Of a DNA stretch of 64,000 nucleotides, positions 1,075 through 61,811 are shown piece after piece; position 1 is the stretch's first letter, and each line of letters starts with the position of its first letter. Location: positions 4,441 through 68,440 of the forward strand of contig JAUWIJ010000003.1 of assembly GCA_030605415.1 (NCBI GenBank). Reading direction: 5' to 3'. The DNA is from an archaeon (GTDB taxonomy: Archaea; Nanobdellota; Nanobdellia; Pacearchaeales; GW2011-AR1). The notes beneath the pieces were generated by a model, which was not told the DNA's origin, searched no databases, and saw only the letters and a list, made by a program, of their open reading frames with translations. Made by a program: the position numbers and the translations under genes.

Positions 1075-1157
1075 AAATTACCTAAGATATATTACATTAT
1101 AAATTTACCCCCAAAAACCATAACTCCTCAATCCAAAAGTTTTATAATATAACAAAC

Positions 1158-1165
1158 TTTATAAA
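1158..1165 (+). promoter_or_regulatory. TATA-box-like TTTATAAA upstream of the 1189 operon
   Basis: It lies 24-31 nt upstream of ATG 1189. The same motif and spacing recur at many genes here. Confidence 0.5.
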
Positions 1166-1188
1166 GTTTAATAGAGGTGTAACACTAC

Positions 1189-1398
1189 ATGGATGCAAAA
1201 AAGAAGTTGACGATTTTGGTTATAGTTGCAGTAATTCTTGCGATAACGGCAATAGTGTTAAATATTGCAGATTCAGAAGTTCCGACGACAAGAAGCTCAT
1301 CTGATGCCGACCAAAGTAGTGGGGGAGTTATCGGAGTTGATATAATACCTGGAGAAGTTGAAGATAAATTATTAGAAGAAACGGCGGGGCAACCATGA
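1189..1398 (+). CDS. small membrane-anchored protein (one N-terminal TM helix, acidic tail)
   Basis: 69-aa ORF with hydrophobic LTILVIVAVILAITAIVL. Its stop overlaps the next start (ATGA at 1395), so it is the first gene of the operon. Confidence 0.5.
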   Translation: MDAKKKLTILVIVAVILAITAIVLNIADSEVPTTRSSSDADQSSGGVIGVDIIPGEVEDKLLEETAGQP

Positions 1399-1985
1399 AA
1401 TTAGATAACACAGAAATAATAAGTTACATATCGATAGCGGTTATAATCATATCGTTATTTTTTATAGGTGCAGAAATTACGGGATACGCAGTAACGGAAA
1501 ACGAGACGGCAATAGTCAATGTTACTATTTCGACATCAGCTGCATTAGAGTTTACTACAGCTCTTCTTGATTTTGGTTCTGGTTATGTAAATGCGGGGCA
1601 GGCAGGGGCGACAATAAATAGCGACGGAACCGTTACTGACGGAACATGGGCAGTGCAAAATGGGGAATTGGTGCTAGATAATATAGGAAATATAAATTTA
1701 AGTTTAACATTGTCAACAAATAAGACTGTAGCTGATTTTATTGATGGCTTAAATCCAACATTTAAAGCAAAAGTATCAGATACTGCCGGTAATACCGGGG
1801 CGTGTACTGGTACTCAAACATTTAGTTCGTACGCAGAAGTTAATCAGACTCTTCAAACAGCATGTGGAAAGTTGGCATTTGGCGGAGACTTCGACGAAAT
1901 TGATATTAACTTTGAGCTATACATTCCTAACGACGCGGAAGGTGCAAAAACGATAGGAATAATTGCTATAGGTACTACGCTGTAA
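1395..1985 (+). CDS. secreted or anchored beta-rich surface protein, candidate filament or pilin-like subunit
   Basis: 196 aa with an N-terminal TM/signal (ISIAVIIISLFFIGAEITGYA), followed by Thr/Asn/Gly-rich beta-type sequence. No family was recognised with certainty. Confidence 0.45.
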   Translation: MKLDNTEIISYISIAVIIISLFFIGAEITGYAVTENETAIVNVTISTSAALEFTTALLDFGSGYVNAGQAGATINSDGTVTDGTWAVQNGELVLDNIGNINLSLTLSTNKTVADFIDGLNPTFKAKVSDTAGNTGACTGTQTFSSYAEVNQTLQTACGKLAFGGDFDEIDINFELYIPNDAEGAKTIGIIAIGTTL

Positions 1986-2033
1986 AGTTGATGGGAACTG
2001 TAAATTTATAAACAATAATTTCTTAATTAGCTA

Positions 2034-3179
2034 ATGAAGAGGAATATTATTTTAGGATTATTTTTGTTGGTGATTATTTTTGCAGAAATAATTTCTGCAG
2101 GAGGAGTGGGAATTAGCCCGGTATATTACAAAGAGTTTTTTGAGCCAAATTTAGAAAAGAATTTTACTTTCAATGCTTTTAATACAAAAGCAGAGGAGGG
2201 AGTAAATATTTATGTCAAAGGAGACCTCGCAGATTATGTTACATTAAGTAATGCGTATTTTTTGGGTGGTGGAGAATTTATAGTTACAATAAAACTGCCG
2301 ACAAAAATTGAGAAGCCAGGAACGCATGAAATAATCATAGGTGCAATAGAGGCCAAGAGCGAAATAGAAGGAGCAACTCTGGGTGGAATTGCGGCAATAC
2401 AGGGACGAATCGACATACTGGTTCCCTACCCAGGAAAATATTCCGAATCAACATTTACAATAAATAATATTAACGAAGGGGAATCAGCAACTTACGAAAT
2501 AGAAACTGAAAACTTAGGGAGCCAATATTTAGATATAAAGACCACAATTGAAGTTTATAAAAATAATATGTCAGAAAAAGTTTTGACAAAAAAACTAAAA
2601 GAAATAAATCTTAAACCAAAAGAAATCTTCAGCGTAATCGAAACAATAGATACTCGAAATCTCCCTCCCGGAGACTACCAAGCTCTCGCAATAATCGACT
2701 GGGGACAAATAGATAAAATAAATCAAACTTTCCGAATCGGAGAATTCTTAGTTGAAATTATCGACTATGATTATCAATTCGAAGAAAACAAAATCAACGA
2801 ATTCAACATAGAAATACAAAATAAATGGAACACAAAAATAGACAAAATATTCGCTACAGTATCGATAACAGATGAAGGAAGATTTCTGAATAGTTTCAAA
2901 ACAGTTTCGGTAGACACGGCACCATGGGAAACAAAAAATCTAACAAGTTATTTCGATACCACAGGACTTGAAACAAAAAGGTATACTGCGAATATCGTTT
3001 TGAATTACGGCGAAGAAATCTCAAGCAAACTAATAGCAATTTACATAAACGAATCTCCGAAAGAGAGATACGCAAAATATATTATAATAGCAACAATAAT
3101 AGCTCTAAGTATAATAGCAACATTCATCTACTTAATATTAAAAATAATAAAGCTAAGAAAAAATGCAAAGAAAAAATAA
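2034..3179 (+). CDS. secreted protein with tandem Ig-like (CARDB-like) domains and a C-terminal TM anchor
   Basis: 381 aa. It has a signal peptide, then GVGISPVYY, then NEGESATYEIETENLG-type beta-sandwich sequence. The C-terminal TM is IIIATIIALSIIATFIYLIL, followed by KLRKNAKKK. Confidence 0.5.
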   Translation: MKRNIILGLFLLVIIFAEIISAGGVGISPVYYKEFFEPNLEKNFTFNAFNTKAEEGVNIYVKGDLADYVTLSNAYFLGGGEFIVTIKLPTKIEKPGTHEIIIGAIEAKSEIEGATLGGIAAIQGRIDILVPYPGKYSESTFTINNINEGESATYEIETENLGSQYLDIKTTIEVYKNNMSEKVLTKKLKEINLKPKEIFSVIETIDTRNLPPGDYQALAIIDWGQIDKINQTFRIGEFLVEIIDYDYQFEENKINEFNIEIQNKWNTKIDKIFATVSITDEGRFLNSFKTVSVDTAPWETKNLTSYFDTTGLETKRYTANIVLNYGEEISSKLIAIYINESPKERYAKYIIIATIIALSIIATFIYLILKIIKLRKNAKKK

Positions 3180-3564
3180 AATCCTGTTGTCATCATTAAT
3201 AATTGTAGGAGTTGTATTTGTTTTTATGAATAGTTTAGTATTGAGCAAGGAAGTGATTTCAACGGAGTTCGTCTTGGGTGAAAATATGGGCTTTGACTTG
3301 TCGCCAGGAAAATTAAACTTCGGACAGATAGTTCCCGGCAATAGTGCATCAAGAGAAATAACAATAGAAAATAATTTTGATAAAAAAATAAAAATATCAA
3401 TAAAATCTTCAGGAGAAATATCAAAAAATATAATTGTTTCGGAGAATAACTTTATCCTAAATCCTTCAGAATCAAAAAATATAACATTCTCTGCATATAC
3501 TGACGGACTAACAGAATTCAGAAGTTATAACGGAAAAATAATTATTATATCCAAAAGAGCTTAA
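3163..3564 (+). CDS. small secreted Ig-like (PapD/ASH-like) domain protein
   Basis: 133 aa with a signal/TM, then LNFGQIVPGNSASREITIEN, which is typical of single beta-sandwich domains. It overlaps the previous gene by 17 nt. Confidence 0.4.
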   Translation: MQRKNKILLSSLIIVGVVFVFMNSLVLSKEVISTEFVLGENMGFDLSPGKLNFGQIVPGNSASREITIENNFDKKIKISIKSSGEISKNIIVSENNFILNPSESKNITFSAYTDGLTEFRSYNGKIIIISKRA

Positions 3565-3576
3565 ATTGGTTTATTC

Positions 3577-3624
3577 CTAGAACTCAGACCGCTTCACTTT
3601 TAGAACTCAGAATCCCCACTCAGA
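3577..3624 (-). repeat. short AGAACTC-type element remnant
   Basis: The sequence ctagaactcagaccgcttcacttttagaactcagaatcc resembles revcomp of the Pop5 insert (cagaactcagaccgcttcgctctcagaactc). Confidence 0.6.
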
Positions 3625-3688
3625 TTAAAAGTGTTCATTTCTGTGGAGAATCGGAAAGATTAATAAATAACTAAGTTTTGTTAAAACT

Positions 3689-4459
3689 ATGAAAAAAGAG
3701 AGTTGGGAAGTGGCTTTGGATAAGTTTCTTATACCTTGGAAGAAGAACAAAGAGGTAAGCGGAATTATTGTTTGCGGAAGCTATATTACAGGCAACCCGA
3801 CAAAACACTCTGACGTTGATATCTACATAGTCTTAAAAAAAGAATGTAAATGGGAAGAAAGAGGAAACAAGATTGTGGATGGAATTTTAATGGAGTATTT
3901 TGCAAGTCCTCCGAGGCAGATTAAAAAAAATTTAGAATCCGATTTTAAAAAAAGAGAACAAATTGATGCACATATGATTTACACTGGAAAAATCATATTA
4001 GACAAAGAGGGCGGATTAAGAAAATTAAAGAAACTATCAAAAAAATACTTGAATAAGAAATTTGGAAAAATGACTCGTTATATGTATGAATTGGGAAAAT
4101 ACGATCTTTTTGATATGTCCGATAATTTAGAAGAGGTATACCTTAGAAAAACTCCAGATTTTAACTTTGTATATTTTAACTTTCTTGAAGATGTTTTTTC
4201 AATATATTCCGAATTCTTGAGTTATTATAAAATTAAAAAAGATAATGTTTATAGATTCTTAACCGATAAAGAAAATAGAAAGAAATATTTAATATCTGAT
4301 TTTCCAGATAAAGTATTTTTAAGAAATTTTGTTTTAGCAATAAAAGAAAGGAATGAAAAGAAGATGTTAAGAAAATTTGTTGAACTGTCAAAATATGTTC
4401 AGGACAAAATGGGTGGTTTTGATATAGATGGATGGAAGTTTAAATCTAGTGCAGAATGA
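3689..4459 (+). CDS. Pol-beta superfamily nucleotidyltransferase (KNTase/ANT-like)
   Basis: CGSYITGNPTKHSDVDIYIV matches the GS...DxD nucleotidyltransferase motif, and there is a helical C-terminal half. Confidence 0.6.
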   Translation: MKKESWEVALDKFLIPWKKNKEVSGIIVCGSYITGNPTKHSDVDIYIVLKKECKWEERGNKIVDGILMEYFASPPRQIKKNLESDFKKREQIDAHMIYTGKIILDKEGGLRKLKKLSKKYLNKKFGKMTRYMYELGKYDLFDMSDNLEEVYLRKTPDFNFVYFNFLEDVFSIYSEFLSYYKIKKDNVYRFLTDKENRKKYLISDFPDKVFLRNFVLAIKERNEKKMLRKFVELSKYVQDKMGGFDIDGWKFKSSAE

Positions 4460-4610
4460 ATACAAACTAGAAGCTCTGTCTCCCACTTAAAATAGGTCAA
4501 ATCAGCAACCTTTTTAGAGAACTGTTTTTTCTAAATAAATTCGGATAAAAATTATTGTACTTAATTTCTCAAACATGGAACACTTTTTCGTTTTCGGTAG
4601 AAATCCTAAA

Positions 4611-4859
4611 TTATCTTCCAACGTGTCCATAATAGCGCCTTCTCTTTTCCATTCTCTCTTCTATTAACTTTATACGCTCTTCATAGTTCTCCTTCCACAT
4701 CGTTTTAAATGTTTTTGGAGTTGGTTCCAAATTTTTCAGATATTCTAAGCGACGCTCATCATCAGAAGAATCCGCAGAATATACCTCTTTAGACATAACT
4801 TTATCAACCAAAAATTTTGAAGTGTCTTGCTTATTCTGAGCTATTGTTTCATCTTCCAT
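4611..4859 (-). CDS. hypothetical protein (83 aa from the internal ATG)
   Basis: The ORF track extends to 4943, but ATG 4859 (MEDETIAQNK) has a TATA-like box 22-30 nt upstream. Confidence 0.4.
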   Translation of the reverse strand: MEDETIAQNKQDTSKFLVDKVMSKEVYSADSSDDERRLEYLKNLEPTPKTFKTMWKENYEERIKLIEERMEKRRRYYGHVGR

Positions 4860-4880
4860 ACTTATTATAAAATAAAATAC

Positions 4881-4889
4881 TATATAAAT
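4881..4889 (-). promoter_or_regulatory. TATA-like box (TTTATATA on the minus strand) for 4611..4859
   Basis: Spacing is 22-30 nt from ATG 4859. Confidence 0.4.
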
Positions 4890-4961
4890 CTTTCGGTGTG
4901 TTATCACTTTAAAGTAAGTCCTCCACTCCATTTTCAATCGCAATATCCTCGATGTTGCTAT

Positions 4962-5100
4962 CCCACAAATCCCAAATTCCTCGCCAGTCCCATCCCCCGT
5001 CCCCAGCTCTGAGTTCTAAGTTCTCATCCCTGAGTCGGCGTGCCCCAACCCATTTTCCCCTTGTATCTGTGAGGGTATCTCTACGTTCTCAATTCTGAAC
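4962..5100 (+). repeat. composite GC-rich mosaic element
   Basis: It reads CACAAATCCCAAAT, then CCCCGTCCCCAGCTCTGAGTTCTAAGTTCT, then GAGTCGGCGTGCCCCAACC...TTGTATCTGTGAGGGTATC. Confidence 0.8.
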
Positions 5101-5105
5101 GTCGC

Positions 5106-5972
5106 TCAAACTCCCTCTTTGGCTCCCTCTCCAACCGAAACACTTTCACTTTCTTTGGCACTTTCAGCTCGTTTCAACTTAACTTCCTCATCAGCCTTTT
5201 CAGCCAAAGTTCTCATTTTTTCCTCAATTGCACTCTCTCCAGATTTCAACTCACTCTCTTTCTTCTCTCGGGCAAGTCTTTTCTTTCGCGGTTCTTCCAA
5301 AATCAATTTCTCCCCAACAAAATCTTCAAGACTAGGCAACGGTTTATCAATCTTGTATGCCTTCATATATTCCCTTGCCATCAACCAAAAGAATAACCCA
5401 AGCGACTTATTCGATTTATTATTTCCAATCATCACGACATCAATATTCGCAGTGTGATTATTAGTATCGCAAACGCCAACGACGGGAATTCTAATATTCT
5501 TCGCATCCGCCAGAGCATTCTTATCTAACCACGGGTCGCAAATAACAATCATCTTGGTTTCAATAAAATCATCCAGCACAGTATTGGTCAAAACCCCCGA
5601 CGGATATTTCTTCGTATAAGTTCGAACCCCAGTTAATTCAGCAAACATTTTTGCCGCCCTCCAGCCAGCCTCTCTTTTACAAACCAAAGTCCAATCACTC
5701 GGCTTGAATCGCTTAATAAAATCGATACCATCAGCCAATTTTTTATCAACCAAAAGTGTGTTCAAAATCGCAAGACCATCCAGCCTTCTCCTATAAACAT
5801 ATTTTCTCATCGTCGGCGTAATAACCTTTGTCCCCAAATACGACGCCGTCTTAATATAATCCTCAAGAGGAGTCAAAATCGTCTGGTCTTCTTTCTTATC
5901 GCCAACATTTTGTTTATCAGATGACTCGTCTACATTAACATCTTTTATAGTTTCTTCTTTTTTGTCCGCCAT
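5106..5972 (-). CDS. rps2: 30S ribosomal protein S2 (uS2) with Lys/Glu-rich N- and C-terminal extensions
   Basis: The core contains LGTKVITPTMRKYVYRRRLDGLAILN and VVGVCDTNN. The tail is a low-complexity KKRLAREKKESELK sequence. Confidence 0.9.
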   Translation of the reverse strand: MADKKEETIKDVNVDESSDKQNVGDKKEDQTILTPLEDYIKTASYLGTKVITPTMRKYVYRRRLDGLAILNTLLVDKKLADGIDFIKRFKPSDWTLVCKREAGWRAAKMFAELTGVRTYTKKYPSGVLTNTVLDDFIETKMIVICDPWLDKNALADAKNIRIPVVGVCDTNNHTANIDVVMIGNNKSNKSLGLFFWLMAREYMKAYKIDKPLPSLEDFVGEKLILEEPRKKRLAREKKESELKSGESAIEEKMRTLAEKADEEVKLKRAESAKESESVSVGEGAKEGV

Positions 5973-10657: not shown

Positions 10658-10689
10658 TTTTCAATCCTCCATCCTTTAATTTTCTAAGT

Positions 10690-10776
10690 CTACTACCAAC
10701 TACCAGAGAGGTAAAGCCTCTCGAACTACTTAGGGTCTGCCCCAACCTGTCTTTCTTTTGTATTTGTGAGGGTACC
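10690..10776 (+). repeat. GC-rich mosaic element between rrp4 and rrp41
   Basis: It contains CTACTACCAACTACC, the hairpin GAGAGG-TAAAG-CCTCTC, and GGGTCTGCCCCAACC...TTTGTATTTGTGAGGGTACC. Confidence 0.8.
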
Positions 10777-10782
10777 ACTAAC

Positions 10783-10807
10783 TGCAATGAAATTTCCGAT
10801 TTCATTG
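10783..10807 (-). terminator. 10-bp hairpin overlapping the rrp4 stop codon
   Basis: The hairpin is gcaatgaaat-ttccg-atttcattgc. Function is not established, since archaeal termination normally uses oligo-T. Confidence 0.3.
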
Positions 10808-11524
10808 CTCCCCTCCATCTGTATCTTCTGCAATGATTTCAACACTGCCAGTTTTCAAACCAAGTTCCCTAATAAAATTTTCAACTTTTTTAGTCAGACC
10901 AGCGACAGTAACATTGTCTGCAATAAACTCGATAATTTTTCTTGCGGTAACTTCACTATCAGTATCCTTTCCATAAATCCAAACCTTGCCATTTTGCCCA
11001 ACCGTAATATCACACCCAGTAGCACCTTTAATTAATTTCACCATGCTTCCTTCTTTCCCAATAATTCTGGGAACTTTATTCGGACCAACTGAAATAATCA
11101 TACCGCCACCAATTTTTCCATATCCTCTCATTTTCATTGAAACATCAACGCCCCGAGACTTGACATCCCAAACCTTAATAATTACAGATTCTCCGAAATC
11201 CAAAAATTCCTGCATCTCGTTTTTATTAATATATCGTGGCACTTCAGCAACCGGCAAAAACGCGTTCTGTGCTCCGCCGAAATCAATCAGCCACCCATTA
11301 AATGTAATATCTACAATCGTTCCAATAATTGTATTTCCACGTCGAGGATAGTAAGCCCCGGAGATAGGAGAAACTCTGACATGTTTCTCAAAAACATTAA
11401 CAATACCATACACACCTGCAACCACGTCATCACCATCTCTATAAACACCGTCGCCAGGCAAAAATTCGTTCCCGGAAACTATCGTCTCACCCGGAATAAC
11501 AATTTGTCTTTTTTCAGCTACCAT
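10802..11524 (-). CDS. rrp4: exosome complex RNA-binding subunit Rrp4 (S1 + KH)
   Basis: QIVIPGETIVSG..FLPGDGVY is the N-terminal/S1 part and GKEGSMVKLIKGATGCDITVGQNG is the KH part. The track start 11560 is TTG. The ATG at 11524 (MVAEKRQ) is preferred. Confidence 0.85.
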   Translation of the reverse strand: MVAEKRQIVIPGETIVSGNEFLPGDGVYRDGDDVVAGVYGIVNVFEKHVRVSPISGAYYPRRGNTIIGTIVDITFNGWLIDFGGAQNAFLPVAEVPRYINKNEMQEFLDFGESVIIKVWDVKSRGVDVSMKMRGYGKIGGGMIISVGPNKVPRIIGKEGSMVKLIKGATGCDITVGQNGKVWIYGKDTDSEVTARKIIEFIADNVTVAGLTKKVENFIRELGLKTGSVEIIAEDTDGGEQ

Positions 11525-13858: not shown

Positions 13859-14233
13859 CTATCTTTTCAACCCCTTCAATGTCCCGCTAACTTTTTCAAT
13901 CTTAATTCCCGCCAAAGCCAACGCCGCTCTAACATCCTCCAACGATTTCACTAAACAACTACCAATAATAAATTCCCGTTCCCCCTCCCCCGTCCCCCTC
14001 TGAAATCTGAGTTCTGAGTTCTGAGTTCTGGACTTCCCGTCCACCGAGTTCTGAGAGCGAAGCGGTCTGAGTTCTGAGTTCTGAATTTCCATATAAGCCG
14101 ACTTCGCAAATCCAAGTGTTCCAACATATTCCAAAATCGCAGATTCAACTTTCGCGTTACTTGCTTTAACTAAAAAATACCTTCTCTTATCTCGAGCCGA
14201 CGGTTTAAGTTTTAGCTTTTTTATTTTTACCAT
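13859..14233 (-). CDS. RNase P protein component 2 (Pop5/Rnp2) interrupted in frame by a ~37-codon repeat element
   Basis: LKPSARDKRRYFLVK is the Pop5 N-terminus, and the gene holds its superoperon position next to psmA. The ATG is at 14233 (the track start 14260 is GTG). Confidence 0.7.
   Translation of the reverse strand: MVKIKKLKLKPSARDKRRYFLVKASNAKVESAILEYVGTLGFAKSAYMEIQNSELRPLRSQNSVDGKSRTQNSELRFQRGTGEGEREFIIGSCLVKSLEDVRAALALAGIKIEKVSGTLKGLKR
13977..14088 (+). repeat. GAGTTCT-type element inside the Pop5 CDS
   Basis: It shares an identical 31-mer (ccccgtccccctctgaaatctgagttctgag) and an identical 28-mer (ctggacttcccgtccaccgagttctgag) with revcomp of intergenic 17367-17490. Confidence 0.9.
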
Positions 14234-17322: not shown

Positions 17323-17360
17323 ATCAAATTAAGAATATTCGTTATTAAAAATATTGCTAT

Positions 17361-17676
17361 TGGACGAGAACTCAGAACTCGGTGGACGGGAAGTCCAGAT
17401 CTCAGAACTCCAACGAGAACTCAGAATTCAGATCTCAGAACTCCAACGAGAACTCAGATCTCAGAACTCAGATTTCAGAGGGGGACGGGGAGCTGGGGGC
17501 GGGGGGCACGCCCCCGGAGGGTAGGGCTTTTGGGAGTGGTGGTTCTAAGCTCTAAGAGTGAATGAAATGAACGGTCTGAGTTCTGAGTTCTAGGGAGTGG
17601 AACGACCTCTAAGAGCGAATGAAATGAGCGGTCTAAGTTCTAAGTTCTCAGTTCTGTTTTGAGCAAGAGACGAGCG
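17361..17676 (+). mobile_element. MITE-like foldback element, copy A (AGAACTC arm, GC-rich core, GAGTTCT arm)
   Basis: The ends tggacgagaactcag ... gagcaagagacgagcg match copy B at 44331-44563. The ~108-nt core 17501-17608 is near-identical to 44433-44541. No ORF. Confidence 0.65.
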
Positions 17677-17730
17677 AAAAACAATAACATTAAACTTTAA
17701 AAACTCCGACGTCCACAAATTTCTAGCAAG

Positions 17731-19436: not shown

Positions 19437-20113
19437 TGGAAATTTACCAGCCCGCCGAAGATTCATATTTTTTCGCAGATTTTTTAAAAAAATACCTCAC
19501 TACCAACTACTCACTACCAACTACTCACTATTTGGATATGGGCTCTGGCTCTGGAATTCTATCTGAAACTGCATCAAAATTTTTAGACAAAAAAAACATT
19601 TTAGCCACCGATATAAATTCATCTGCAATAAAATTATTAAAACAAAAAAAGATTAATGCAATCAAAACAAATCTTTTTGAAATTTTTGGTAGAACAAGTC
19701 GTGCTTCACAAATCCCAAATCCCAAATCCCTCGTCGCTCCCCTCCCCTGCCCCACAAATCCCAAATACCAAATACCAAATCCCTCGCTTGCAAATCCCAA
19801 ATCCCGAATACCAAATCCCTCGTCTATGTCCCAAATCCCTCGTTTCGACCTAATAACTTTCAACGCACCCTATCTCCCTCTCGATTCACGCGAACCAAAA
19901 TCATCACAACTTGCAACAACTGGCGGGAAAAAAGGCGATGAAATTTCACTAGAATTTTTAAAGCAGGCAAAAAAACATCTGAACAAAAACGGCAAAATAT
20001 TTCTCCTGATTTCGAGTCTAACACCAATGGATAAAATAAAAAGGTTCAATCCGAAAATAGTTGCAAAGAAGAAAATATTTATGGAAGAGTTATTGATATT
20101 AGAGTTTAGCTAA
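19436..20113 (+). CDS. HemK/Mtq2-like SAM-dependent methyltransferase with two repeat-derived inserts
   Basis: Motif I is LDMGSGSGILS and motif IV is FNAPYLP (a variant of NPPY). Confidence 0.6.
   Translation: MEIYQPAEDSYFFADFLKKYLTTNYSLPTTHYLDMGSGSGILSETASKFLDKKNILATDINSSAIKLLKQKKINAIKTNLFEIFGRTSRASQIPNPKSLVAPLPCPTNPKYQIPNPSLANPKSRIPNPSSMSQIPRFDLITFNAPYLPLDSREPKSSQLATTGGKKGDEISLEFLKQAKKHLNKNGKIFLLISSLTPMDKIKRFNPKIVAKKKIFMEELLILEFS
19498..19530 (+). repeat. (CACTACCAACTACT)x2 array inside the methyltransferase CDS
   Basis: Read directly. It encodes LTTNYSLPTTHY. Confidence 0.85.
19707..19842 (+). repeat. CCCAAAT-type array inside the methyltransferase CDS
   Basis: CACAAATCCCAAATCCCAAATCCCTCG is followed by variants. 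It encodes QIPNPKS...QIPNPS...RIPNPS between motif I and motif IV. Confidence 0.9.
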
Positions 20114-26269: not shown

Positions 26270-26283
26270 TTAGAAACACTTAG

Positions 26284-26401
26284 CTCACCAGAGATACCTA
26301 CTGGGTGAAAACCTCGGTTTTTAAAAGTTCAACCAAAACCTTTATCTCACCAGAGATACCTACTGGGTGAAAACCTCGGTTTTTAAAAGTTCAACCAAAA
26401 C
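26284..26401 (+). repeat. perfect 56-nt direct repeat x2 separated by 6 nt
   Basis: ctcaccagagatacctactgggtgaaaacctcggtttttaaaagttcaaccaaaac occurs at 26284-26339 and again at 26346-26401. Confidence 0.95.
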
Positions 26402-44330: not shown

Positions 44331-44563
44331 TGGCGAGAACTCAGAACTCGACGAGAACTCAGATCTTAGAACTCAGATCTCAGAACTCAGAGGGGGCAAC
44401 CGACGAGGACAGGGATAGGAGAAGCGGGAACGGGGGGGCACACCCCCAGGGGTAGGGCTTTTGGGAGTGGTAATTCTAAGCTCTAAGAGTGAATGAAATG
44501 AACGGTCTCAGTTCTAAGTTCTATAGAGAGTGAAACGACCTGAGTTCTGGGAGCAAAGCGACC
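44331..44563 (+). mobile_element. MITE-like foldback element, copy B
   Basis: It has the same termini and ~108-nt core as 17361-17676. Arms of AGAACTC (left) and GAGTTCT (right) form long imperfect inverted repeats. Confidence 0.65.
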
Positions 44564-44568
44564 TAAAT

Positions 44569-45361: not shown

Positions 45362-46054
45362 TTAATAACAACCTCTTTGAGTTGTGGTAGCAGAAGTTGT
45401 AACAGATTTAACATTACAACCATTACAATATTTAACTCCTGGAGCATTAGCACTACATGATTCTGCTGCCTGATTGCTGAACTCATGACTCCCAGTGTTG
45501 CAAGTAATTGGAGAAGAGAAGCTTGCCCTACAAATATAAGGACCAGTGAATTGAGCGTCTCTGTAATACAGCTTGCATGTTGCTGAATTACTGGATGTAG
45601 TACTCCACTCTTTAAATCGTGCCCATCCTGTTGGGCAACTTGCAAATCTGCAGAGTTTATCTCCTCCACTGCTAACCACTGTTCCGCCTAAATTAGTGCA
45701 TTGTGTGCTACTATGAATTCCATAAACTAAATCAAACTGAGTTGAAGTTACTCCGGTTACATCTTTACAAACAACTTTGCCAGTGGTGAAATCAATTTTT
45801 ACAATAGCTTTAGCTCCACAATCATAAACACCGAGTTCTCTTTGAAAGTCATTACATCTCCAACTGCTTCCACTCCATTCTAAAACCTGTCCACTCCCAC
45901 AACCAGCTGGAGGAGCAACTTGAGTTATCAAATGCCCTGGATTTGGAGCAACTCCTGGGGTCAAAGCATAAACAACACCGACGACCAACACAGCAACTAA
46001 CAAAACTATCAAAGTAATATTTTTCTTCCCCAACTCAATTTTCAAACTTGGCAT
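45362..46054 (-). CDS. Cys-rich secreted or anchored protein
   Basis: 230 aa with an N-terminal TM (ITLIVLLVAVLVVGVVYA), then a PNPGH motif and more than 16 Cys. No family recognised. Confidence 0.5.
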   Translation of the reverse strand: MPSLKIELGKKNITLIVLLVAVLVVGVVYALTPGVAPNPGHLITQVAPPAGCGSGQVLEWSGSSWRCNDFQRELGVYDCGAKAIVKIDFTTGKVVCKDVTGVTSTQFDLVYGIHSSTQCTNLGGTVVSSGGDKLCRFASCPTGWARFKEWSTTSSNSATCKLYYRDAQFTGPYICRASFSSPITCNTGSHEFSNQAAESCSANAPGVKYCNGCNVKSVTTSATTTQRGCY

Positions 46055-54924: not shown

Positions 54925-57261
54925 TTACTTCTTCGCCTCTTCCTCAACTTCCTTAATCGTCGCCACATCTCCGACTCCCCTATCACTTCTCAGTTGAATA
55001 ATACGAGGAAATCTCAAAGCATAACCCGAAGAATAAGTCGGCGACTTTTGAATGTTCTGATATTGAACCGTAATAACAATCTCGGGCTTAACTTTAATTC
55101 TCCGTCCTTTAGTTTCAATCAACAACTTTTCTAACATGTCTGTCATCTCAACAAAACTCAAACCCTGCTCTGGCAATTCCTTCAGCCCCGTCGACACTTT
55201 CCCAACTCCAAGCAACTCGTCATTGCCATGCGATATTTTTATATTCTCAATCTCCTCTAAAACTTCTGGTACCTTCTTCAAGCACCTTCCAAAATGAAAC
55301 TTATCTTTATAAATTTTAAATTTTGCATTCAATCCCTTCGCATTTCTTTCTCCCGCCTCAAATGCAATAATAGGATCATTTCGAGAATGAATTACAATAA
55401 AATTATCACAGTGAGATTTAATCTTTTCAAAATCATAAAGACCAGCCTCATAAAACCCATGTGTATTTTTCTCTCGACTTTTCTTAATATCAGTAGGGTT
55501 ATTCGTCCCAATCAAAATTACTTTTTTAATTCGTCTCCCTTTAGATAACCTTTCCAGCCACCTCATAATCGCAACTCCTCCTCGAGAATGCCCAACTAAA
55601 ACACTATTTTCATTAGGATTAATCTTATCCAATTCCTCAAGCCACTCGCTTAAAACAGGATCATTAGTTTTTGGCAAATCTGGAGCAACAAATTCAAAAC
55701 CTTTCTTCTTGACTTCTTTACCAAGCCAAGGATACCATGCATCATTTGATGTCATCTTTTTTCCATGCATAAAAACAACATTATCTAAATTGTTTGCCGA
55801 AGGCAACTCTCCTTCGAACCCCGAACCCCGAACCCCGAATTCCGAATTCCGACACGCAACATCAAACGAAGTCAACCACCCCGCTCGCTTTCCAGTTCCC
55901 CATTCAGCACCGGTAATTACCAAATCGAAATCTTTATCTTCAGGTTTCAGTTTAACAGCATATCCAATCCGAGCCCCCGGTTTATATGGCGCCTCCAAAC
56001 TTTTCCCCATCAAACCTTCCTGATTATCATTCAATGCCTTCTCATAAAATTTCTCAACCACTTTCCCATCATCAGTAATAATTTGTTTCGCCAGAACAAT
56101 CTTAAATTTTTTCTCCTGCACAATTCGTTCAATCAAATGTCGTCTCTCGGCAAACGGCGTTGCAATCAAACTATTCCCATCATAATAAACAATGTCAAAA
56201 ACAACTAACTCAATCGGCAACGACTTCCTCATTTCAGCAATTCCATATTTCCGCCGAATCCTCTGACTAATCGCCTGAAAGTCCGTATACTTTTTCGTCA
56301 TCGCATACCCTTCTTGGGTCTTACCAGCAGGTGCAAACCCAACCGCTTCAGCGTCGAGAATAAAACTATTCCCCTTAACATGATTTTCAACATACTCAAC
56401 AATTTCAGGAAATTGCGTCGTCACCTCTTCCAGTCGTCGGGTAAAAATTTTAATCCTTCCATCGCTTTCCTTATTAATCATAACCCTAAATCCATCATAC
56501 TTGTATTCAAATGCCGCGGGGCGACCGACAATTTTAAACGCATCTTCAACGTCCTTCGCCTTCGGAAACAACATAACTTTTATGGGTTTCCCCGGCTCCA
56601 ATTTAATTTTCTCCAACGAATCATCACACGCTCTCTCAAAAACCTCAGCAAAATCCGTAGCCCTGTCATACGCCTTCTGAACTTCTTTAACACAAGTCTT
56701 TTTATCTTCCAAATTTTTCGGCTTAAAACAATACATAGCAATCGCATCCCTCAAAATACCAGACCCAACACCAATTTTCAAATCACCCAAAACAGTCCGC
56801 ACAATATACCTTGCCTCTTTCGGCGTCGCTGAGTGCAACAAATCAACAATAAACCCAACCTTCAAATCAACCGTTCCATTTCCCTCAATCGTCGGCAACT
56901 TCCGTAAATTATCCATAACTTTCTCAACACTTAACTTTTCAGAAAACAAAGCCGTCTGCGTTTTCCTTTTCTTTAAAATTGATTCTGCAACTTTTCCTAA
57001 ATCTCCAAGTTTTTTAAACTCATCAACAACTTCTGCATCATTAATTCCAGCCGCTCTCCCAATTGCCCGAATCACCAACTGATGCGAAATTCCCAATTCT
57101 CGATTATCATAATCCGCAAACAACCGACCCTGCAATAAATAAATCAACTCAGGTTTATCCTTAATATTCCCCAGAAAACTCGCAAGTATATCCGTCTTTT
57201 CCAAGCCCTTCGACGTCGATTCCAACGCTTCATAAATTTCACATATCTTCGAATAGTCCAT
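54925..57261 (-). CDS. lig: ATP-dependent DNA ligase carrying an inserted alpha/beta-hydrolase domain
   Basis: It has a DBD N-terminus, the adenylation motif EYKYDGFR, EGLMGK, and the OB domain and motif VI (YALRFPRIIQLRSDR). It is 778 aa, versus roughly 550-600 aa for typical archaeal ligases. Confidence 0.9.
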   Translation of the reverse strand: MDYSKICEIYEALESTSKGLEKTDILASFLGNIKDKPELIYLLQGRLFADYDNRELGISHQLVIRAIGRAAGINDAEVVDEFKKLGDLGKVAESILKKRKTQTALFSEKLSVEKVMDNLRKLPTIEGNGTVDLKVGFIVDLLHSATPKEARYIVRTVLGDLKIGVGSGILRDAIAMYCFKPKNLEDKKTCVKEVQKAYDRATDFAEVFERACDDSLEKIKLEPGKPIKVMLFPKAKDVEDAFKIVGRPAAFEYKYDGFRVMINKESDGRIKIFTRRLEEVTTQFPEIVEYVENHVKGNSFILDAEAVGFAPAGKTQEGYAMTKKYTDFQAISQRIRRKYGIAEMRKSLPIELVVFDIVYYDGNSLIATPFAERRHLIERIVQEKKFKIVLAKQIITDDGKVVEKFYEKALNDNQEGLMGKSLEAPYKPGARIGYAVKLKPEDKDFDLVITGAEWGTGKRAGWLTSFDVACRNSEFGVRGSGFEGELPSANNLDNVVFMHGKKMTSNDAWYPWLGKEVKKKGFEFVAPDLPKTNDPVLSEWLEELDKINPNENSVLVGHSRGGVAIMRWLERLSKGRRIKKVILIGTNNPTDIKKSREKNTHGFYEAGLYDFEKIKSHCDNFIVIHSRNDPIIAFEAGERNAKGLNAKFKIYKDKFHFGRCLKKVPEVLEEIENIKISHGNDELLGVGKVSTGLKELPEQGLSFVEMTDMLEKLLIETKGRRIKVKPEIVITVQYQNIQKSPTYSSGYALRFPRIIQLRSDRGVGDVATIKEVEEEAKK
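55222..55845 (-). other. ~208-aa in-frame insertion in the ligase OB domain: YdeN/RBBP9-like serine hydrolase fold
   Basis: The insertion lies between FDVACRN and DELLGVGKVSTG. It contains VVFMHG, WYPWL and the nucleophile-elbow-like VGHSRGG. Confidence 0.7.
55815..55856 (+). repeat. (CGAACCC)x3 (CGAATTC)x2 heptamer array at the N-terminal junction of the ligase insert
   Basis: Read directly. It encodes SEFGVRGSGFEG. Confidence 0.95.
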
Positions 57262-57874: not shown

Positions 57875-58192
57875 ATGGATGTAACAGACGCAAACTTTGA
57901 AACTGAAGTTATCGAAAAATCAAAAACAACTCCAGTTCTGGTAGATTTTTGGGCAAGCTGGTGCGGACCGTGTGTGATGCTAAAACCGGTTCTTGAAAAA
58001 ATTGCAACAGAATATGAAGGCAAATTTATTCTAGCAAAAGCAAATTCAGACGATAACTCGAACACAGCAGAAAAATTCGGCGTGATGTCAATCCCGGCAG
58101 TAAAACTTTTCAAAAACGGCAAAGTAGTAGATGAATTCGTTGGCGTGCAGCCCGAAGTAACAATCAAACAATGGCTCGACAAGAAATTGTAA
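57875..58192 (+). CDS. trxA: thioredoxin
   Basis: The active site is WASWCGPC, and VPAVKLFKNGK is the Trx fold. Confidence 0.9.
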   Translation: MDVTDANFETEVIEKSKTTPVLVDFWASWCGPCVMLKPVLEKIATEYEGKFILAKANSDDNSNTAEKFGVMSIPAVKLFKNGKVVDEFVGVQPEVTIKQWLDKKL

Positions 58193-58516
58193 TTATCTAA
58201 TAAAATATTCAATCTTATTTCTTACTTTCTCATAAAACTTTTTTTCAAGTCGTGCCAATTTTTTAATAATAATTCTTTCATCAATTGCAAAAATCCTATG
58301 AGGCTTAACCCAACTTTTGAATGGTAATGTCCCGTCGCTAAATGAATTTTTATTAATTAAAACGCCATCCATTGGTCTATTGGAAGTAATCAGGCAACAA
58401 ATTTTATCTCCGCCTTTCAAGTTTTTATTCGAAATAATTATCGCGGGTCTTTTCTTAGCGCCAGTTAAATCCGAGTAAGGAAATGGAATTAAAATAATAT
58501 CTCTTTGTTTAAACAT
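58193..58516 (-). CDS. PemK/MazF-family toxin
   Basis: The evidence is RDIILIPFPYSDLTGAKKRPAIIIS and CCLITSN. Confidence 0.8.
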   Translation of the reverse strand: MFKQRDIILIPFPYSDLTGAKKRPAIIISNKNLKGGDKICCLITSNRPMDGVLINKNSFSDGTLPFKSWVKPHRIFAIDERIIIKKLARLEKKFYEKVRNKIEYFIR

Positions 58517-58739
58517 TATTCCACCTTTCGTCGGTCTCGTTGTCCCAATCTTTTTTCAAAACTTCTTCCGACGCCAACATAGTCATAATGCCCTCGCTGT
58601 TTTTATCATTCTCAATTTGATTAAGTTCTGCAATTCTTTGCCGAATAACCTTTCTAATAAACTCGCTCCATTTAATTTCAGAATATTTTTTCATTAAATT
58701 ATAGGTTTCAGTCTCAATCGATAACGTGACATTTGTCAT
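58509..58739 (-). CDS. antitoxin (RHH-like) for the MazF-type toxin
   Basis: 76 aa. It overlaps the toxin start by 8 nt. The N-terminal VTLSIETETYNLMKK has a strand-helix pattern. Confidence 0.55.
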   Translation of the reverse strand: MTNVTLSIETETYNLMKKYSEIKWSEFIRKVIRQRIAELNQIENDKNSEGIMTMLASEEVLKKDWDNETDERWNNV

Positions 58740-58778
58740 AATTAATTAAGTGACATCACTTATTTAAACTTTTCGACA

Positions 58779-58825
58779 CACAACCCGAAGCCACAATCAA
58801 ACAATGGCTCGACGAGAAATTGTAA
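58779..58825 (+). pseudogene. orphan copy of the trxA 3' end (codes ..QPEATIKQWLDEKL*)
   Basis: cacaacccgaagccacaatcaaacaatggctcgacgagaaattgtaa compares with native 58145-58192. Confidence 0.85.
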
Positions 58826-58850
58826 ATTAATTATTTTTTCTAAAATTCTG

Positions 58851-58903
58851 TCGGTAGTCGACTTTCCCTGCCCCCACAAACCCCAAATACCTCGCGAAGC
58901 GTG
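58851..58903 (+). repeat. GC-rich mosaic element remnant between the two orphan trxA ends
   Basis: The sequence is tcggtagtcgactttccctgcccccacaaaccccaaatacctcgcgaagcgtgt. Confidence 0.7.
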
Positions 58904-58950
58904 TGCAACCCGAAGCCACAATCAAACAATGGCTCGACGAGAAATTGTGA
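58903..58950 (+). pseudogene. second orphan copy of the trxA 3' end
   Basis: It shares an identical 43-nt run (caacccgaagccacaatcaaacaatggctcgacgagaaattgt) with 58779-58825. It differs from the native copy at 5 of 48 positions. Confidence 0.85.
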
Positions 58951-58956
58951 TTTAGT

Positions 58957-59502
58957 TTAAGGTTTAATTGGAATAGCTTGTTTTAATAGTCTTAGTAATT
59001 TATCTTCTTTAGAAACATACCCAGAAGATGAAAATCTTTTACCCTCCAAATAATTATAAACAATTTCTGCATCATCTAAAGCATCTGATGTGTAAGGATT
59101 AGATCCCATAAATAGAGTTTCACCAACTCTTCCACTATCTATTTTAGAAATTTCAATTAAAGGTTTTAGATTTACAGGATCTACATAAACAGGGGATTGA
59201 CATCTGTAATGCATAACAATTTTTTCATCGGGCTCAAATTCTGCATCATCATTTGCTTTCCAGTATTGTCTAAATGATTTTGTTCCCAATACTCTAAAAA
59301 AAATTTGCTTATCAAAAACACCATTGTATTTTAATTCATCAATTGCCTGATTAAATACATCCTCTCTTTTTACCTGTTCCATCCAAAAATCCTTTTTTAT
59401 AACAACTCCAAAACAATCATAATTTCTTGAAAAATTAGAATCAACATAAATTATATCTCCTAAAGAATATTTTCTAACGCTTTTTTCTTTTAAGCTAACC
59501 AT
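58957..59502 (-). CDS. hypothetical protein (181 aa)
   Basis: ORF with a TATA at 59524-59533. No family recognised. Confidence 0.4.
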   Translation of the reverse strand: MVSLKEKSVRKYSLGDIIYVDSNFSRNYDCFGVVIKKDFWMEQVKREDVFNQAIDELKYNGVFDKQIFFRVLGTKSFRQYWKANDDAEFEPDEKIVMHYRCQSPVYVDPVNLKPLIEISKIDSGRVGETLFMGSNPYTSDALDDAEIVYNYLEGKRFSSSGYVSKEDKLLRLLKQAIPIKP

Positions 59503-61788: not shown

Positions 61789-61811
61789 CAAATCAATGAG
61801 CCCGCCGTGAT

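What the first reader, a model, noticed from the sequence alone, without database searches (positions are those of the whole stretch)
17361..17676. Two copies of a MITE-like foldback element with a conserved ~108-nt GC-rich core
17361-17676 and 44331-44563 share three things:
- Termini: tgg(a)cgagaactcag ... gagcaa(g)ag(a)cga.
- Arm structure: a left arm of AGAACTC repeats and a right arm of GAGTTCT repeats, which are long imperfect inverted repeats.
- A nearly identical core: ggggggcac[g/a]ccccc..gggtagggcttttgggagtggt..ttctaagctctaagagtgaatgaaatgaacggtct.agttct.agttcta.

Copy A carries an internal duplication of the ctctaagag.gaatgaaatga.cggtct unit. Neither copy has coding capacity. One copy lies in a divergent promoter region and the other between convergent genes. 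The conserved core could be a small RNA or a protein-binding site carried by a non-autonomous element.
Basis: seen in the sequence. Interest (0 to 1): 0.65.

Follow-up and report, generated by a model that had tools for sequence, protein, structure and literature searches.

The report
Foldback heptamer-repeat insertions in a DPANN archaeon
The two look-alike stretches are copies of a multi-copy, non-coding "foldback" repeat that was inserted into this tiny archaeal genome but not into its closest relatives; related repeat modules litter the genome and even sit in-frame inside housekeeping genes, so it looks like selfish DNA rather than an RNA gene.

Summary
Copy A (17361-17676) and copy B (44331-44568) share their ends, inverted AGAACTC/GAGTTCT heptamer arms, and a 108-nt core that is 90% identical. 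Their flanks are unrelated.

The window comes from a Pacearchaeota/Woesearchaeota (DPANN) archaeon with 36% GC. Both copies are insertions: sister genomes with conserved gene order have short, empty spacers at both sites.

Contig depth in the source metagenome puts the arms and the right-hand module at about 9-15 copies per genome. The G-rich centre, which is the "core", is at about 1-2 copies. So the arms define the family, not the core. Short-read assemblies break inside both copies.

No Rfam family matches. The element has no internal promoter-like box, is not conserved in relatives, and shows no compensatory base changes. No transposase was found in about 77 kb.

A and B are the largest members of a lineage-specific invasion by mosaic modules: period-7 arrays, GGGGACGGGG-type G4 motifs and small hairpins. 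These modules are about 20-fold enriched over relatives. They also sit in-frame in probable Pop5, a methyltransferase, TruB/Cbf5 and RPA.

Best reading: selfish or neutral foldback insertion DNA, similar to MITEs and Rickettsia palindromic elements and built from heptameric repeat arrays. How it moves is not resolved. I rate it a new variant of a known kind, of moderate interest.

The parts
17361..17676 (+). Copy A, the full foldback element. It is inserted between the two back-to-back core promoters of the 98-aa membrane-protein gene (-) and the RNase J gene (+).
   Evidence: Sequence. Window 17332-17697 (364 nt) corresponds to 32 nt in L029, and the site is likewise empty in L003, L004 and L006. 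Two independent assemblies break inside it.
17361..17480 (+). Left arm of A: AGAACTC/AGATCTC heptamer array, including a 33-nt higher-order repeat (x2.3) and the non-array piece GGTGGACGGGAAGTCC.
   Evidence: TRF: period 7 x11.6; period 33 x2.3 at 93%. families D5, I1, I2.
17480..17512 (+). G-rich centre of A: canonical G-quadruplex motif GGGGGACGGGGAGCTGGGGGCGGGGGG, followed by the GGGGGGCACGCCCCC mini-hairpin.
   Evidence: G4-motif scan. Fold. The GGGGACGGGG motif occurs 6 times in the window against once in 1.23 Mb of relatives.
17501..17608 (+). 108-nt core shared with copy B (90% identical).
   Evidence: also (D11).
17541..17655 (+). Right arm of A: two tandem 57-nt units (GGGAGTGG..CTCTAAGAGYGAATGAAATGARCGGTCT + (R/G)AGTTCT arrays). 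This is the highest-copy module of the family.
   Evidence: D6. (I1-I11). Depth 474-782 against 55-59 in the flanks. Present in ENA NODE_66.
17677..17692 (+). Possible degenerate target-site duplication: AAAAACAATAACATTA here against AAAAATATTGCTA at 17347-17359. The empty site in relatives reads AAAAACATTACTA.
   Evidence: Ambiguous.
44331..44568 (+). Copy B, a foldback element inserted between the convergent 259-aa gene (+) and the RPA gene (-).
   Evidence: Sequence. L088 and L089 (91% identical RPA, same gene order) have an 83-nt spacer without it. Logan contigs end at 44394 and restart at 44479.
44336..44391 (+). Left arm of B (AGAACTC/AGATCTC array x8.4).
   Evidence: Depth 637-689 against 59 in the flank.
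44433..44541 (+). Core of B. Its right arm (CAGTTCT/AAGTTCT/GAGTTCT) lies at 44506-44552.
   Evidence: Depth 698-864 over 44465-44526, but only 0-53 over 44403-44464.
13966..14084 (-). Partial copy (left arm plus G4 motif of copy A, in reverse orientation), inserted in-frame (+28 aa) in a loop of the probable RNase P protein Pop5 (13859-14233, -).
   Evidence: Inverted matches I1 (55 nt, 87%) and I2 (40 nt, 98%) to copy A. Absent in L029 and L004; a simple (AGAACTC)4.7 array sits at the same place in L007. Weak best PDB hit is 'Pop5'.
3579..3615 (+). Short fragment of the same family (AGAACTCAGACCGCTTCAC..AGAACTC).
   Evidence: I10 (90% complementary to 14046-14075).
4945..5100 (-). Related mosaic element: promoter-like M7 module + (GAGAACT)2 + GGGGACGGGG + (GGGATTT)2.
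10664..10811 (-). Related mosaic insertion (two hairpins + M7 + TAGTTGG array) between two exosome-operon genes that overlap in L029. It is flanked by a perfect 8-bp direct repeat, CCTCCATC.
19683..19843 (+). Related C-strand module (CAAATCC arrays + CCCCTCCCCTGCCCC), inserted in-frame (+49 aa) in a PrmC/MTS-type methyltransferase. It is absent in five relatives.

Best explanation
Copies A and B are two closely related members of a lineage-specific, multi-copy family of non-coding foldback insertion elements in a Pacearchaeota/Woesearchaeota (DPANN) genome.

Anatomy. Each element has three parts:
- a left array of AGAACTC-type heptamers;
- a G-rich, G-quadruplex-prone centre that differs between copies;
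- a right module ending in the complementary GAGTTCT-type array.
Either single strand can therefore fold back on itself.

Behaviour. The elements act as selfish or neutral DNA, not as genes.
- A complete unit with defined ends is copied into A/T-rich spacers. This step is inferred, and the enzyme is unknown and probably supplied in trans.
- The heptamer arrays then grow and shrink by replication slippage.
- Modules are exchanged between copies by recombination, which gives mosaic and partial copies.

Survival. Insertions persist only where they do no harm:
- between back-to-back promoters (A);
- between convergent gene ends (B);
- in 3' regions;
- inside genes when they are in-frame, stop-free and in surface loops.

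Shown: the anatomy, the insertion status at both sites, the high copy number of the arms, the mosaic relatives, and the in-frame coding insertions.

Inferred: the copy-and-paste step, slippage, and tolerance by selection.
For: 1. Insertion status. Sister genomes with conserved gene order have empty sites for A (L029, L003, L004, L006) and for B (L088, L089). Marine-sediment runs X2 and X4 contain the L029-like empty RNase J site, yet also hold the repeat modules at high depth in other flanks.

2. Copy number. In run X1 the genome is at 55-59x. The right module is at 474-864x, B's left arm at 637-689x, and the centres at 0-118x. 46-47 contigs were laid, and many run on into different unique flanks. 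All short-read assemblies break at these modules.

3. Discrete common ends abut unrelated flanks.

4. Family context.
- 22 GC-containing period-7 arrays in 64 kb against 21 in 1.23 Mb of relatives.
- 12 G4 motifs against 12 in 1.23 Mb, with 11 of 12 on the sense strand of the gene that contains or adjoins them.
- GGGGACGGGG 6 times against once.
- The same few heptamers recur at several loci within this genome: AGAACTC, CAAATCC, CCAACTA.

5. Every window-specific indel against L029 that I inspected carries such modules. One of them has a perfect 8-bp flanking duplication.

6. In-frame, stop-free insertions in probable Pop5 (+28 aa), the methyltransferase (+3 and +49), TruB/Cbf5 (+11 and +24), a 175-aa protein (+13) and RPA (+10).

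7. Not an RNA gene. No Rfam hit at gathering or E<=10 thresholds. No compensatory pairs. Fold z-scores are only -2.7 and -1.2. The core is absent from 80 related loci, from GTDB genomes, from JGI metagenomes and from IMG/VR.
Against: - No transposase or other candidate mobilising gene was found in the window or in 13 kb of extra flanks (Pfam).
- The extreme termini are not inverted repeats.
- Target-site duplication is ambiguous for A and not seen for B.
- Mosaic and partial copies, and right ends that differ between copies (loose ends), fit recombination or template switching as well as transposition.
- Heptamer arrays arise repeatedly at the same protein positions in other lineages with other heptamers. 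This points to hot spots or a repair-type process.
- No transcription data could be obtained, so a cis-regulatory effect is not excluded.
- Copy numbers come from contig k-mer depth in a metagenome, so close relatives may contribute.
Confidence: 0.58

Rival explanations
1. There is no dedicated mobile element. The arrays arise in place by polymerase slippage at fragile A-rich sites. Longer composite patches, including the A/B core, are then copied between loci by ectopic recombination, gene conversion or fold-back template switching during break repair. On this view A and B are repair scars that share a donor.
For: - Mosaic sharing of blocks: the piece GGTGGACGGGAAGTCC is in A and in the Pop5 insert but not in B (I2).
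- Partial and inverted copies exist.
- Module indel variants have single-genome depth in X1 (joints).
- Arrays form repeatedly at identical protein positions in different lineages. These include a same-length replacement in L062 and different heptamers at one orthologous 3' site in the window and L029.
- Perfect mini-hairpins lie next to arrays.
- Published work attributes the excess of heptameric repeats to slippage related to the polymerase footprint (PMC4692102, citing Mrazek 2007).
- No transposase was found.
Against: - The empty sites of A and B in relatives carry no AGAACTC array that could serve as homology.
- A and B share non-array terminal sequences that abut unrelated flanks.
- The inserted arrays are much more GC-rich than the local A-rich sequence they replace, so they are not seeded locally.
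- One insertion has a clean 8-bp duplication, which is typical of staggered-cut insertion.
Confidence: 0.24
2. [quoted passage not shown] It could be an insulator between divergent promoters, a bidirectional terminator or RNA-stability element between convergent genes, or a protein-binding platform.
For: - 11 of 12 G4 motifs lie on the sense strand of the gene that contains or adjoins them.
- Arrays often start at or just after stop codons.
- In unrelated bacteria, (GAGTTCT)n-loop-(AGAACTC)n hairpins sit directly after stop codons, sometimes followed by T-runs.
- Bacterial GGGNATC heptamer repeats show a similar placement and are transcribed (PMC4692102).
Against: - Sister species with 90-97% identical neighbouring proteins lack the elements at the same sites, so the elements are dispensable.
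- Copy A lies upstream of both core promoters and is probably not transcribed.
- Arm order in A and B (AGAACTC first, GAGTTCT second) is the reverse of the bacterial post-stop hairpins.
- Copy B has no canonical G4 motif.
- Contexts are heterogeneous and include coding regions.
Confidence: 0.1
3. The conserved 108-nt core is a small structured RNA gene, or the binding site of a specific protein, carried by the element.
For: The core is 90% identical over 108 nt while the arms differ in length. The predicted consensus fold has 33 pairs.
Against: - No Rfam match.
- 0 compensatory pairs.
- By inspection, no A/T-rich TATA-like box inside the element.
- The core is the low-copy part of the family, while other copies have different centres.
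- Absent in relatives and in all public collections scanned.
- Its right half is simply the diverged complement of the left arm (I3).
Confidence: 0.05
4. Assembly artefact: the repeats were mis-joined or collapsed by the assembler, and the two 'copies' are chimeric.
For: The G-rich middles are not covered by independent contigs. B's segment 44403-44433 has zero Logan depth. Alternative joints exist.
Against: Both junctions of each copy with its unique flanks are reproduced with 100% identity in independent assemblies (ENA NODE_66 and several Logan contigs). The repeat modules themselves are present in three metagenomes.
Confidence: 0.03

Closest known systems
Rickettsia palindromic elements (RPE; Ogata et al. 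2000, cited from my own knowledge; mentioned in PMC1779305)
   Same: Both are short, non-coding, hairpin-forming repeats that have multiplied in a reduced, host-dependent genome. Both occur in intergenic DNA and in-frame inside housekeeping genes without breaking them. Neither has a transposase, clear terminal inverted repeats or regular target duplications, and the mobility mechanism is unknown in both.
   Different: There is no sequence relationship. Here the arms are tandem heptamer arrays, the centre is G-rich and G4-prone, the structure is strongly modular and mosaic, and the host is an archaeon.
Heptameric simple-sequence repeats of bacteria: GGGNATC/GGGGA(C/T)T G4-forming repeats of Xanthomonas and Nostoc, and cyanobacterial STRR (PMC4692102)
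   Same: Both have 7-nt tandem units, typically 2-5 copies. Both occur mostly between genes and close to stop codons on the sense strand. Both are sometimes arranged as inverted arrays that can form stem-loops or G4s. Both vary extensively in length and sequence between close relatives at the same intergenic site.
   Different: The AGAACTC arms are not G-rich. A and B are 230-320-nt composite units with unique ends and a shared non-array core, inserted as blocks. Frequent in-frame coding insertions were under-represented in the bacterial cases.
Prokaryotic MITEs (review PMC10969869; PMC3184786)
   Same: Small size, no coding capacity, multi-copy, internal inverted symmetry, presence/absence polymorphism between close genomes, and location in intergenic regions.
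   Different: No terminal inverted repeats at the very ends, no consistent target-site duplication, no related autonomous IS identified, and copies are mosaics rather than uniform.
Modular mosaic repeats: BIMEs/REP of enterobacteria and BOX elements of pneumococci (from my own knowledge; REP in PMC3733652)
   Same: They are built from a small set of modules combined in variable number and orientation, they are extragenic, and they are hairpin-forming.
   Different: REPs have a GTAG/CGTC-tagged 20-40-nt palindrome and a RAYT partner. Neither is present here. BOX and BIME elements are not found in-frame in genes.
Foldback elements of eukaryotes, and palindromic microsatellite or double-hairpin elements of organelle genomes (PMC7218506; Allomyces DHEs cited therein)
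   Same: The inverted arms are themselves made of short tandem subrepeats. The elements are optional between close species, which is taken as evidence of mobility. They are associated with indels in AT-rich compact genomes.
   Different: Different hosts and unit sizes ((A)n/(T)n or 10-31-bp subrepeats). Foldback elements make 9-bp target duplications, and some encode proteins.

Membership tests
MITE (non-autonomous DNA transposon) | Terminal inverted repeats at the element ends | tested here: inconclusive
   The extreme ends (TTGGACGAG... / ...GACGAGCG) are not complementary. The inverted complementarity lies in subterminal heptamer arrays: 13-44 nt, 70-100% complementary.
MITE (non-autonomous DNA transposon) | Target-site duplication of fixed length | tested here: inconclusive
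   A has a possible degenerate 13-16-nt duplication of AAAAACATTACTA. B has none when compared with the L088 empty site. A related mosaic insertion at 10664-10811 has a perfect 8-bp duplication.
MITE (non-autonomous DNA transposon) | Small, non-coding, multi-copy, with presence/absence polymorphism | tested here: met
   Size is 238-316 nt, with only chance ORFs of 57 aa or less. Depth is 9-15x the genome depth. Empty sites exist in relatives.
MITE (non-autonomous DNA transposon) | Autonomous partner with the same ends that encodes a transposase | not testable with these tools
   No transposase domain was found in the window or in L086/L092. The rest of the genome is not on hand.
REP/BIME mobilised by a RAYT | 20-40-nt imperfect palindrome with a conserved GTAG or CGTC head; RAYT (Y1 transposase) gene | tested here: not met
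   There is no such tagged palindrome in A or B. No Y1_Tnp hit among the window proteins scanned (and the precomputed Pfam).
RPE-like selfish palindromic DNA (functional class, not a sequence family) | Hairpin-forming repeat found both between genes and in-frame within conserved genes that stay intact | tested here: met
   A half-copy of A sits in-frame in probable Pop5. Related modules sit in-frame in the methyltransferase, TruB/Cbf5, RPA and a 175-aa protein. All of these ORFs are intact.
Heptameric SSR / G4-forming repeat class (PMC4692102) | Tandem 7-nt units enriched over other periods | tested here: met
   Among GC-containing arrays in the window, 22 of 29 have period 7. That is 3.4 per 10 kb against 0.17 in relatives.
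Heptameric SSR / G4-forming repeat class (PMC4692102) | Units of GGGNNNN type able to form G4 with about 4 units | tested here: not met
   The arms AGAACTC/GAGTTCT have no G-runs. The G4 motif of A lies in the non-array centre, and B has no canonical motif. Other modules in the window (GGGATTT, TTGGGGG, GGGAGTT) do fit.
Structured small RNA gene | Match to a known family, or conservation with covariation; own promoter | tested here: not met
   No Rfam match. 0 of 33 pairs compensatory. Absent in relatives. No TATA-like box inside the element on reading the sequence. With only two copies, covariation has almost no power.
IS200/IS605-derived palindrome-associated elements | Subterminal hairpins, no TIR or TSD, insertion 3' of a fixed tetranucleotide, TnpA(Y1)/TnpB in the genome | tested here: inconclusive
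   Having no TIR or TSD is compatible. The 4 nt to the left of the element are CTAT (A) and CTCT (B), and two sites are too few to judge. No TnpA or TnpB was seen in 77 kb.

The most novel reading that the evidence does not exclude
A subclade of Pacearchaeota, most extremely this genome, may have a previously undescribed, transposase-independent insertion process, for example break repair or template switching that draws on a genome-specific pool of heptamer arrays, G4 motifs and mini-hairpins. This process would repeatedly overwrite the same A-rich hot spots. Those hot spots include loop-coding segments of essential genes such as the probable Pop5, TruB/Cbf5, RPA, a RadB-like protein and a methyltransferase. 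The foldback elements A and B would be its largest products. This would be an archaeal counterpart of Rickettsia palindromic elements and a source of rapid protein-loop diversification in a reduced symbiont genome.
Probability: 0.2. Interest if true: 0.8.

Novelty: new variant of a known kind. Interest (0 to 1): 0.55.

Why it matters
DPANN archaea have very small, gene-dense genomes and are usually regarded as poor in repeats. Here a lineage-specific burst of foldback and heptamer modules has several consequences:
- It occupies many spacers.
- It breaks short-read assemblies, which is a practical warning for genomes binned from metagenomes.
- It has been written in-frame into core information-processing genes.

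This parallels Rickettsia palindromic elements in another reduced, host-dependent lineage. It offers a natural system for studying how selfish hairpin and G4 DNA spreads without an obvious transposase, and how it creates new protein loops. The recurrent use of the same protein positions by different heptamers in sister lineages is the most unusual aspect and deserves a dedicated comparative study.

Tried and rejected
1. Exact-pattern scans for the core found nothing: GTDB species genomes, JGI metagenomes and IMG/VR. The family could therefore not be enlarged from public assemblies.

2. BLAST of A and B against 80 RNase J loci of relatives found only a simple GAGTTCT array in L007.

3. Rfam, at gathering threshold and at E<=10, returned only noise.

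4. A search for RNA sequencing runs returned none, so transcription is untested.

5. I considered that the intragenic inserts might be bulge-helix-bulge (BHB) type introns removed from the mRNA, and rejected it. The 161-nt methyltransferase insert has no complementary arms. Every intragenic insert I compared with an orthologue leaves its ORF intact and adds a whole number of codons. This is what translation-level filtering predicts and what splicing does not require.

6. Origin-of-replication (ORB plus G-string) reading: rejected. There is no AT-rich unwinding element and no orc1/cdc6 gene nearby.

7. I first read the M7 module (TACCCTCAC-AT-rich-GGTTGGGGCA) as just another hairpin. It is more likely the stable-RNA promoter, because it lies 63-100 nt upstream of the 16S 5' end. 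Degenerate copies of it have been dispersed. Its resemblance to the A/B centre (CTACCCTCC..GGGGGCGTGCC on the minus strand) is short and only suggestive.

8. Pfam did not recognise the 96/124-aa protein as Pop5. That assignment rests on its position next to the proteasome-alpha, SBDS and exosome genes and on a weak best PDB hit named Pop5 (E = 0.14).

9. The scan for (AGAACTC)3 in JGI metagenomes was meant to find an autonomous partner. Instead it showed that this heptamer array is widespread in unrelated, mostly high-GC bacteria. The arm motif on its own is therefore not diagnostic of this family.

Full report
**Observation**

Both stretches exist as described.
- They begin with TTGG(A)CGAGAACTCAGAACTCG and end with GAGCAA(G)AG(A)CGA.
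- The left arm is an array of AGAACTC/AGATCTC heptamers. The right arm is an array of the complementary GAGTTCT/AAGTTCT.
- The core, 17501-17608 against 44433-44541, is 90% identical (99 of 110 columns). The longest exact shared word is 35 nt.
- AGAACTCAGAACTC with up to 2 mismatches occurs 26 times in the window against 0.49 expected. The 22-mer from the core occurs exactly twice against 0 expected.
- Copy A carries a 57-nt tandem duplication of the right module (D6). It is also present in an independent ENA contig.
- The flanks are unrelated, so this is not a segmental duplication.

**Organism and setting**

The RNase J gene next to copy A has 80 relatives in GTDB genomes labelled Pacearchaeota, Woesearchaeota or Nanoarchaeota, at up to 97% identity. 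The window has 36% GC. It encodes archaeal housekeeping genes: proteasome alpha, SBDS, exosome subunits, MCM, RPA, TBP, DNA ligase, topoisomerase and eRF1. No transposase-like domain was found in the window or in 13 kb of extra flank (L086, L092).

**Both copies are insertions**

- Copy A. In L029, L003, L004 and L006 the small membrane-protein gene and the RNase J gene are divergent neighbours, as in the window. Their two TATA-like boxes are separated by only about 10-30 nt. Window 17332-17697 (364 nt) corresponds to 32 nt in L029. Copy A sits exactly in the narrow gap between the two core promoters and leaves both intact.
- Copy B. L088 and L089 (RPA 91% identical, same gene order) have an 83-nt convergent spacer without the element.
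- Target duplication. A possible degenerate duplication flanks A. None is visible at B.

**Copy number**

Logan contigs of the cold-seep run X1 cover the unique flanks at 55-59x.

| Segment | Depth in X1 |
|---|---|
| Right module of A | 474-782 |
| Right module of B | 698-864 |
| Left arm of B | 637-689 |
| Left arm of A | 108-189 |
| Bin 17463-17513 (end of A's left arm and its G-rich centre) | 118 |
| G-rich centre of B | 0-53 |

- 46-47 contigs were laid on each region, and many run on into different unique sequences.
- The arms and right module are therefore present about 9-15 times. The G-rich centre is close to single-copy and is replaced by other G-rich sequences in other copies (loose ends).
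- Runs X2 and X4 (marine sediment) carry the L029-like empty RNase J site, yet hold the modules at high depth in other contexts.
- All short-read assemblies break at these modules.

**A and B are part of something larger**

The window is peppered with mosaic elements built from a small set of modules:
- period-7 arrays (AGAACTC, CAAATCC, CCAACTA, AACTCCC, CCGAACA and others);
- G-runs such as GGGGACGGGG or GGGAACGGGGAAGCGGGGGGG;
- perfect mini-hairpins such as ATCAGCGAAGCTGAT;
- a promoter-like module, M7.

Enrichment over 1.23 Mb of related loci is about 20-fold:

| Feature | Window (64 kb) | Relatives (1.23 Mb) |
|---|---|---|
| GC-containing period-7 arrays | 22 | 21 |
| Canonical G4 motifs | 12 (shuffles: 1.4) | 12 |
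| GGGGACGGGG | 6 | 1 |

Eleven of the 12 G4 motifs lie on the sense strand of the gene that contains or adjoins them. The same few heptamers recur at several loci within this genome. That argues for copying between loci rather than local seeding.

**Insertions inside genes**

Against L029, each of the four window-specific insertions of about 90 nt or more that I aligned carries such modules.
- 10664-10811 separates two overlapping exosome-operon genes and is flanked by a perfect 8-bp duplication. That duplication preserves both the upstream C-terminus and the downstream GGAGG box.
- 13966-14084 is the reverse complement of copy A's left arm plus its G4 motif (40 nt at 98% and 55 nt at 87%). 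It lies in-frame (+28 aa) in a loop of the probable Pop5 protein.
- 19683-19843 adds 49 codons to a methyltransferase.
- TruB/Cbf5 (+11 and +24 aa), a 175-aa protein (+13) and RPA (+10) also carry module-encoded inserts.
- All intragenic inserts compared with an orthologue leave the reading frame intact. This fits translation-level tolerance rather than RNA-level removal.

**Hot spots**

The same protein positions carry heptamer arrays in other Pacearchaeota lineages, but with different heptamers:
- the methyltransferase N-terminus (window, L010, L015, and L021/L038/L044; the ancestral state KKNKINS is kept in many others);
- a RadB-like loop (L062 and six others);
- the probable Pop5 loop (window and L007).

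At one 3' site the window has (TAGTTGG)4.6 where L029 has (GGGATTT)3.3, next to a conserved hairpin.

**Not an RNA gene**

- No Rfam hit at either threshold.
- Fold z-scores of -2.7 and -1.2.
- 0 of 33 consensus pairs compensatory.
- No TATA-like box inside the element.
- Copy A lies upstream of both promoters, while copy B lies in a convergent 3' region.
- The core is absent from relatives and from every collection scanned.
- The right half of the "core" is simply the diverged complement of the left arm (I3).

**Comparison with known systems**

- Heptameric repeats are known to be over-represented in bacteria. The G4-forming GGGNATC repeats of Xanthomonas and Nostoc share several properties with these arrays: placement near stop codons, inverted arrangements, and rapid turnover between close relatives (PMC4692102).
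- A scan of JGI metagenomes showed that (AGAACTC)3 arrays are widespread. In high-GC bacteria they occur as (GAGTTCT)n-loop-(AGAACTC)n hairpins right after stop codons. The arm motif is therefore not specific to this family.
- The behaviour (a hairpin repeat multiplying in a reduced genome and sitting in-frame in essential genes) is closest to Rickettsia palindromic elements.
- The architecture (arms made of tandem subrepeats) recalls foldback elements and organellar palindromic microsatellites (PMC7218506).
- Defining MITE features were not demonstrated.
- No paper describing such repeats in Pacearchaeota or DPANN was found.

**Verdict**

The best explanation is that A and B are selfish or neutral foldback insertion elements of a lineage-specific mosaic repeat family (confidence about 0.6). 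The spreading mechanism is unresolved between trans-mobilisation and recombination or template switching. I rate this a new variant of a known kind, with interest 0.55.

Noticed in passing
window 61685-61795 (-), 61813-62259: There is a stand-alone 110-nt match to archaeal 23S rRNA positions 1157-1270, the GTPase-associated-centre region (78.6 bits). It lies downstream of tRNA-Ile(GAT). Between them are three copies of a TACCCTCAC-(TATA-like)-GGTTGGGGCA module. Two of the three are followed directly by a duplicate of the tRNA 3' end, and another duplicate lies further on. There is also a 99-nt duplicate pair (61850 and 62082, 98%). This could be a fragmented rRNA, a decoy or regulatory piece, or remnants of integration at the tRNA.
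   Followed up: partly
L086 1-958 (about 3.3 kb left of the window start) and L086 1021-1060: The 16S rRNA gene (829 bits) is unlinked from the 23S fragment. The same TACCCTCAC..GGTTGGGGCA module lies 63-100 nt upstream of its 5' end, so the module is probably the stable-RNA promoter. Degenerate copies occur in mosaic insertions (5038-5078, 10735-10775) and inside the P-type ATPase ORF at the window's left edge.
   Followed up: partly
L003-L082 (for example L010 2871, L021 9123/14359/15845, L038 11755/17051, L044 4588/11265, L062 17201, L007 2949): Different Pacearchaeota lineages carry period-7 arrays with different heptamers at the same positions of the same proteins (methyltransferase N-terminus, RadB-like loop, probable Pop5 loop). 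The arrays often lie next to a perfect mini-hairpin. This suggests recurrent hot-spot insertion or replacement.
   Followed up: partly
window 54925-57261 (-): The ATP-dependent DNA ligase (778 aa) has a serine-hydrolase / alpha-beta-hydrolase domain (residues about 495-657) inserted between the adenylation domain and the C-terminal domain.
   Followed up: no
window 26274-26397: A tandem pair of 62-nt units (95% identical), each with two hairpins and a T-run, lies between the Rad50-like gene and the next ORF. It is conserved in L029 and L006 and could be a small RNA or a terminator pair.
   Followed up: no
window 1104-5107 and 45362-46054: A 4-kb block of six ORFs, including an NTP_transf_2/Pol-beta-type nucleotidyltransferase, is absent from L004 and is bordered on the right by a mosaic element. 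A Cys-rich 230-aa ORF between MCM and RPA is absent from L088 and L091 and is preceded by a mosaic element.
   Followed up: partly
L094-L213 (JGI metagenome contigs), for example L113, L140, L163, L197: In unrelated high-GC bacteria, (GAGTTCT)n-loop-(AGAACTC)n hairpins sit immediately after, or overlapping, stop codons, sometimes followed by T-runs. Because 7 is coprime with 3, the array provides TGA in all three frames. It may act as a combined all-frame stop and bidirectional terminator.
   Followed up: partly
window 58148-58957: Three copies of a roughly 52-nt repeat (CAACCCGAAGCCACAATCAAACAATGGCTCGACGAGAAATTGT..) lie around a MazF/PemK toxin gene (58193-58516).
   Followed up: no
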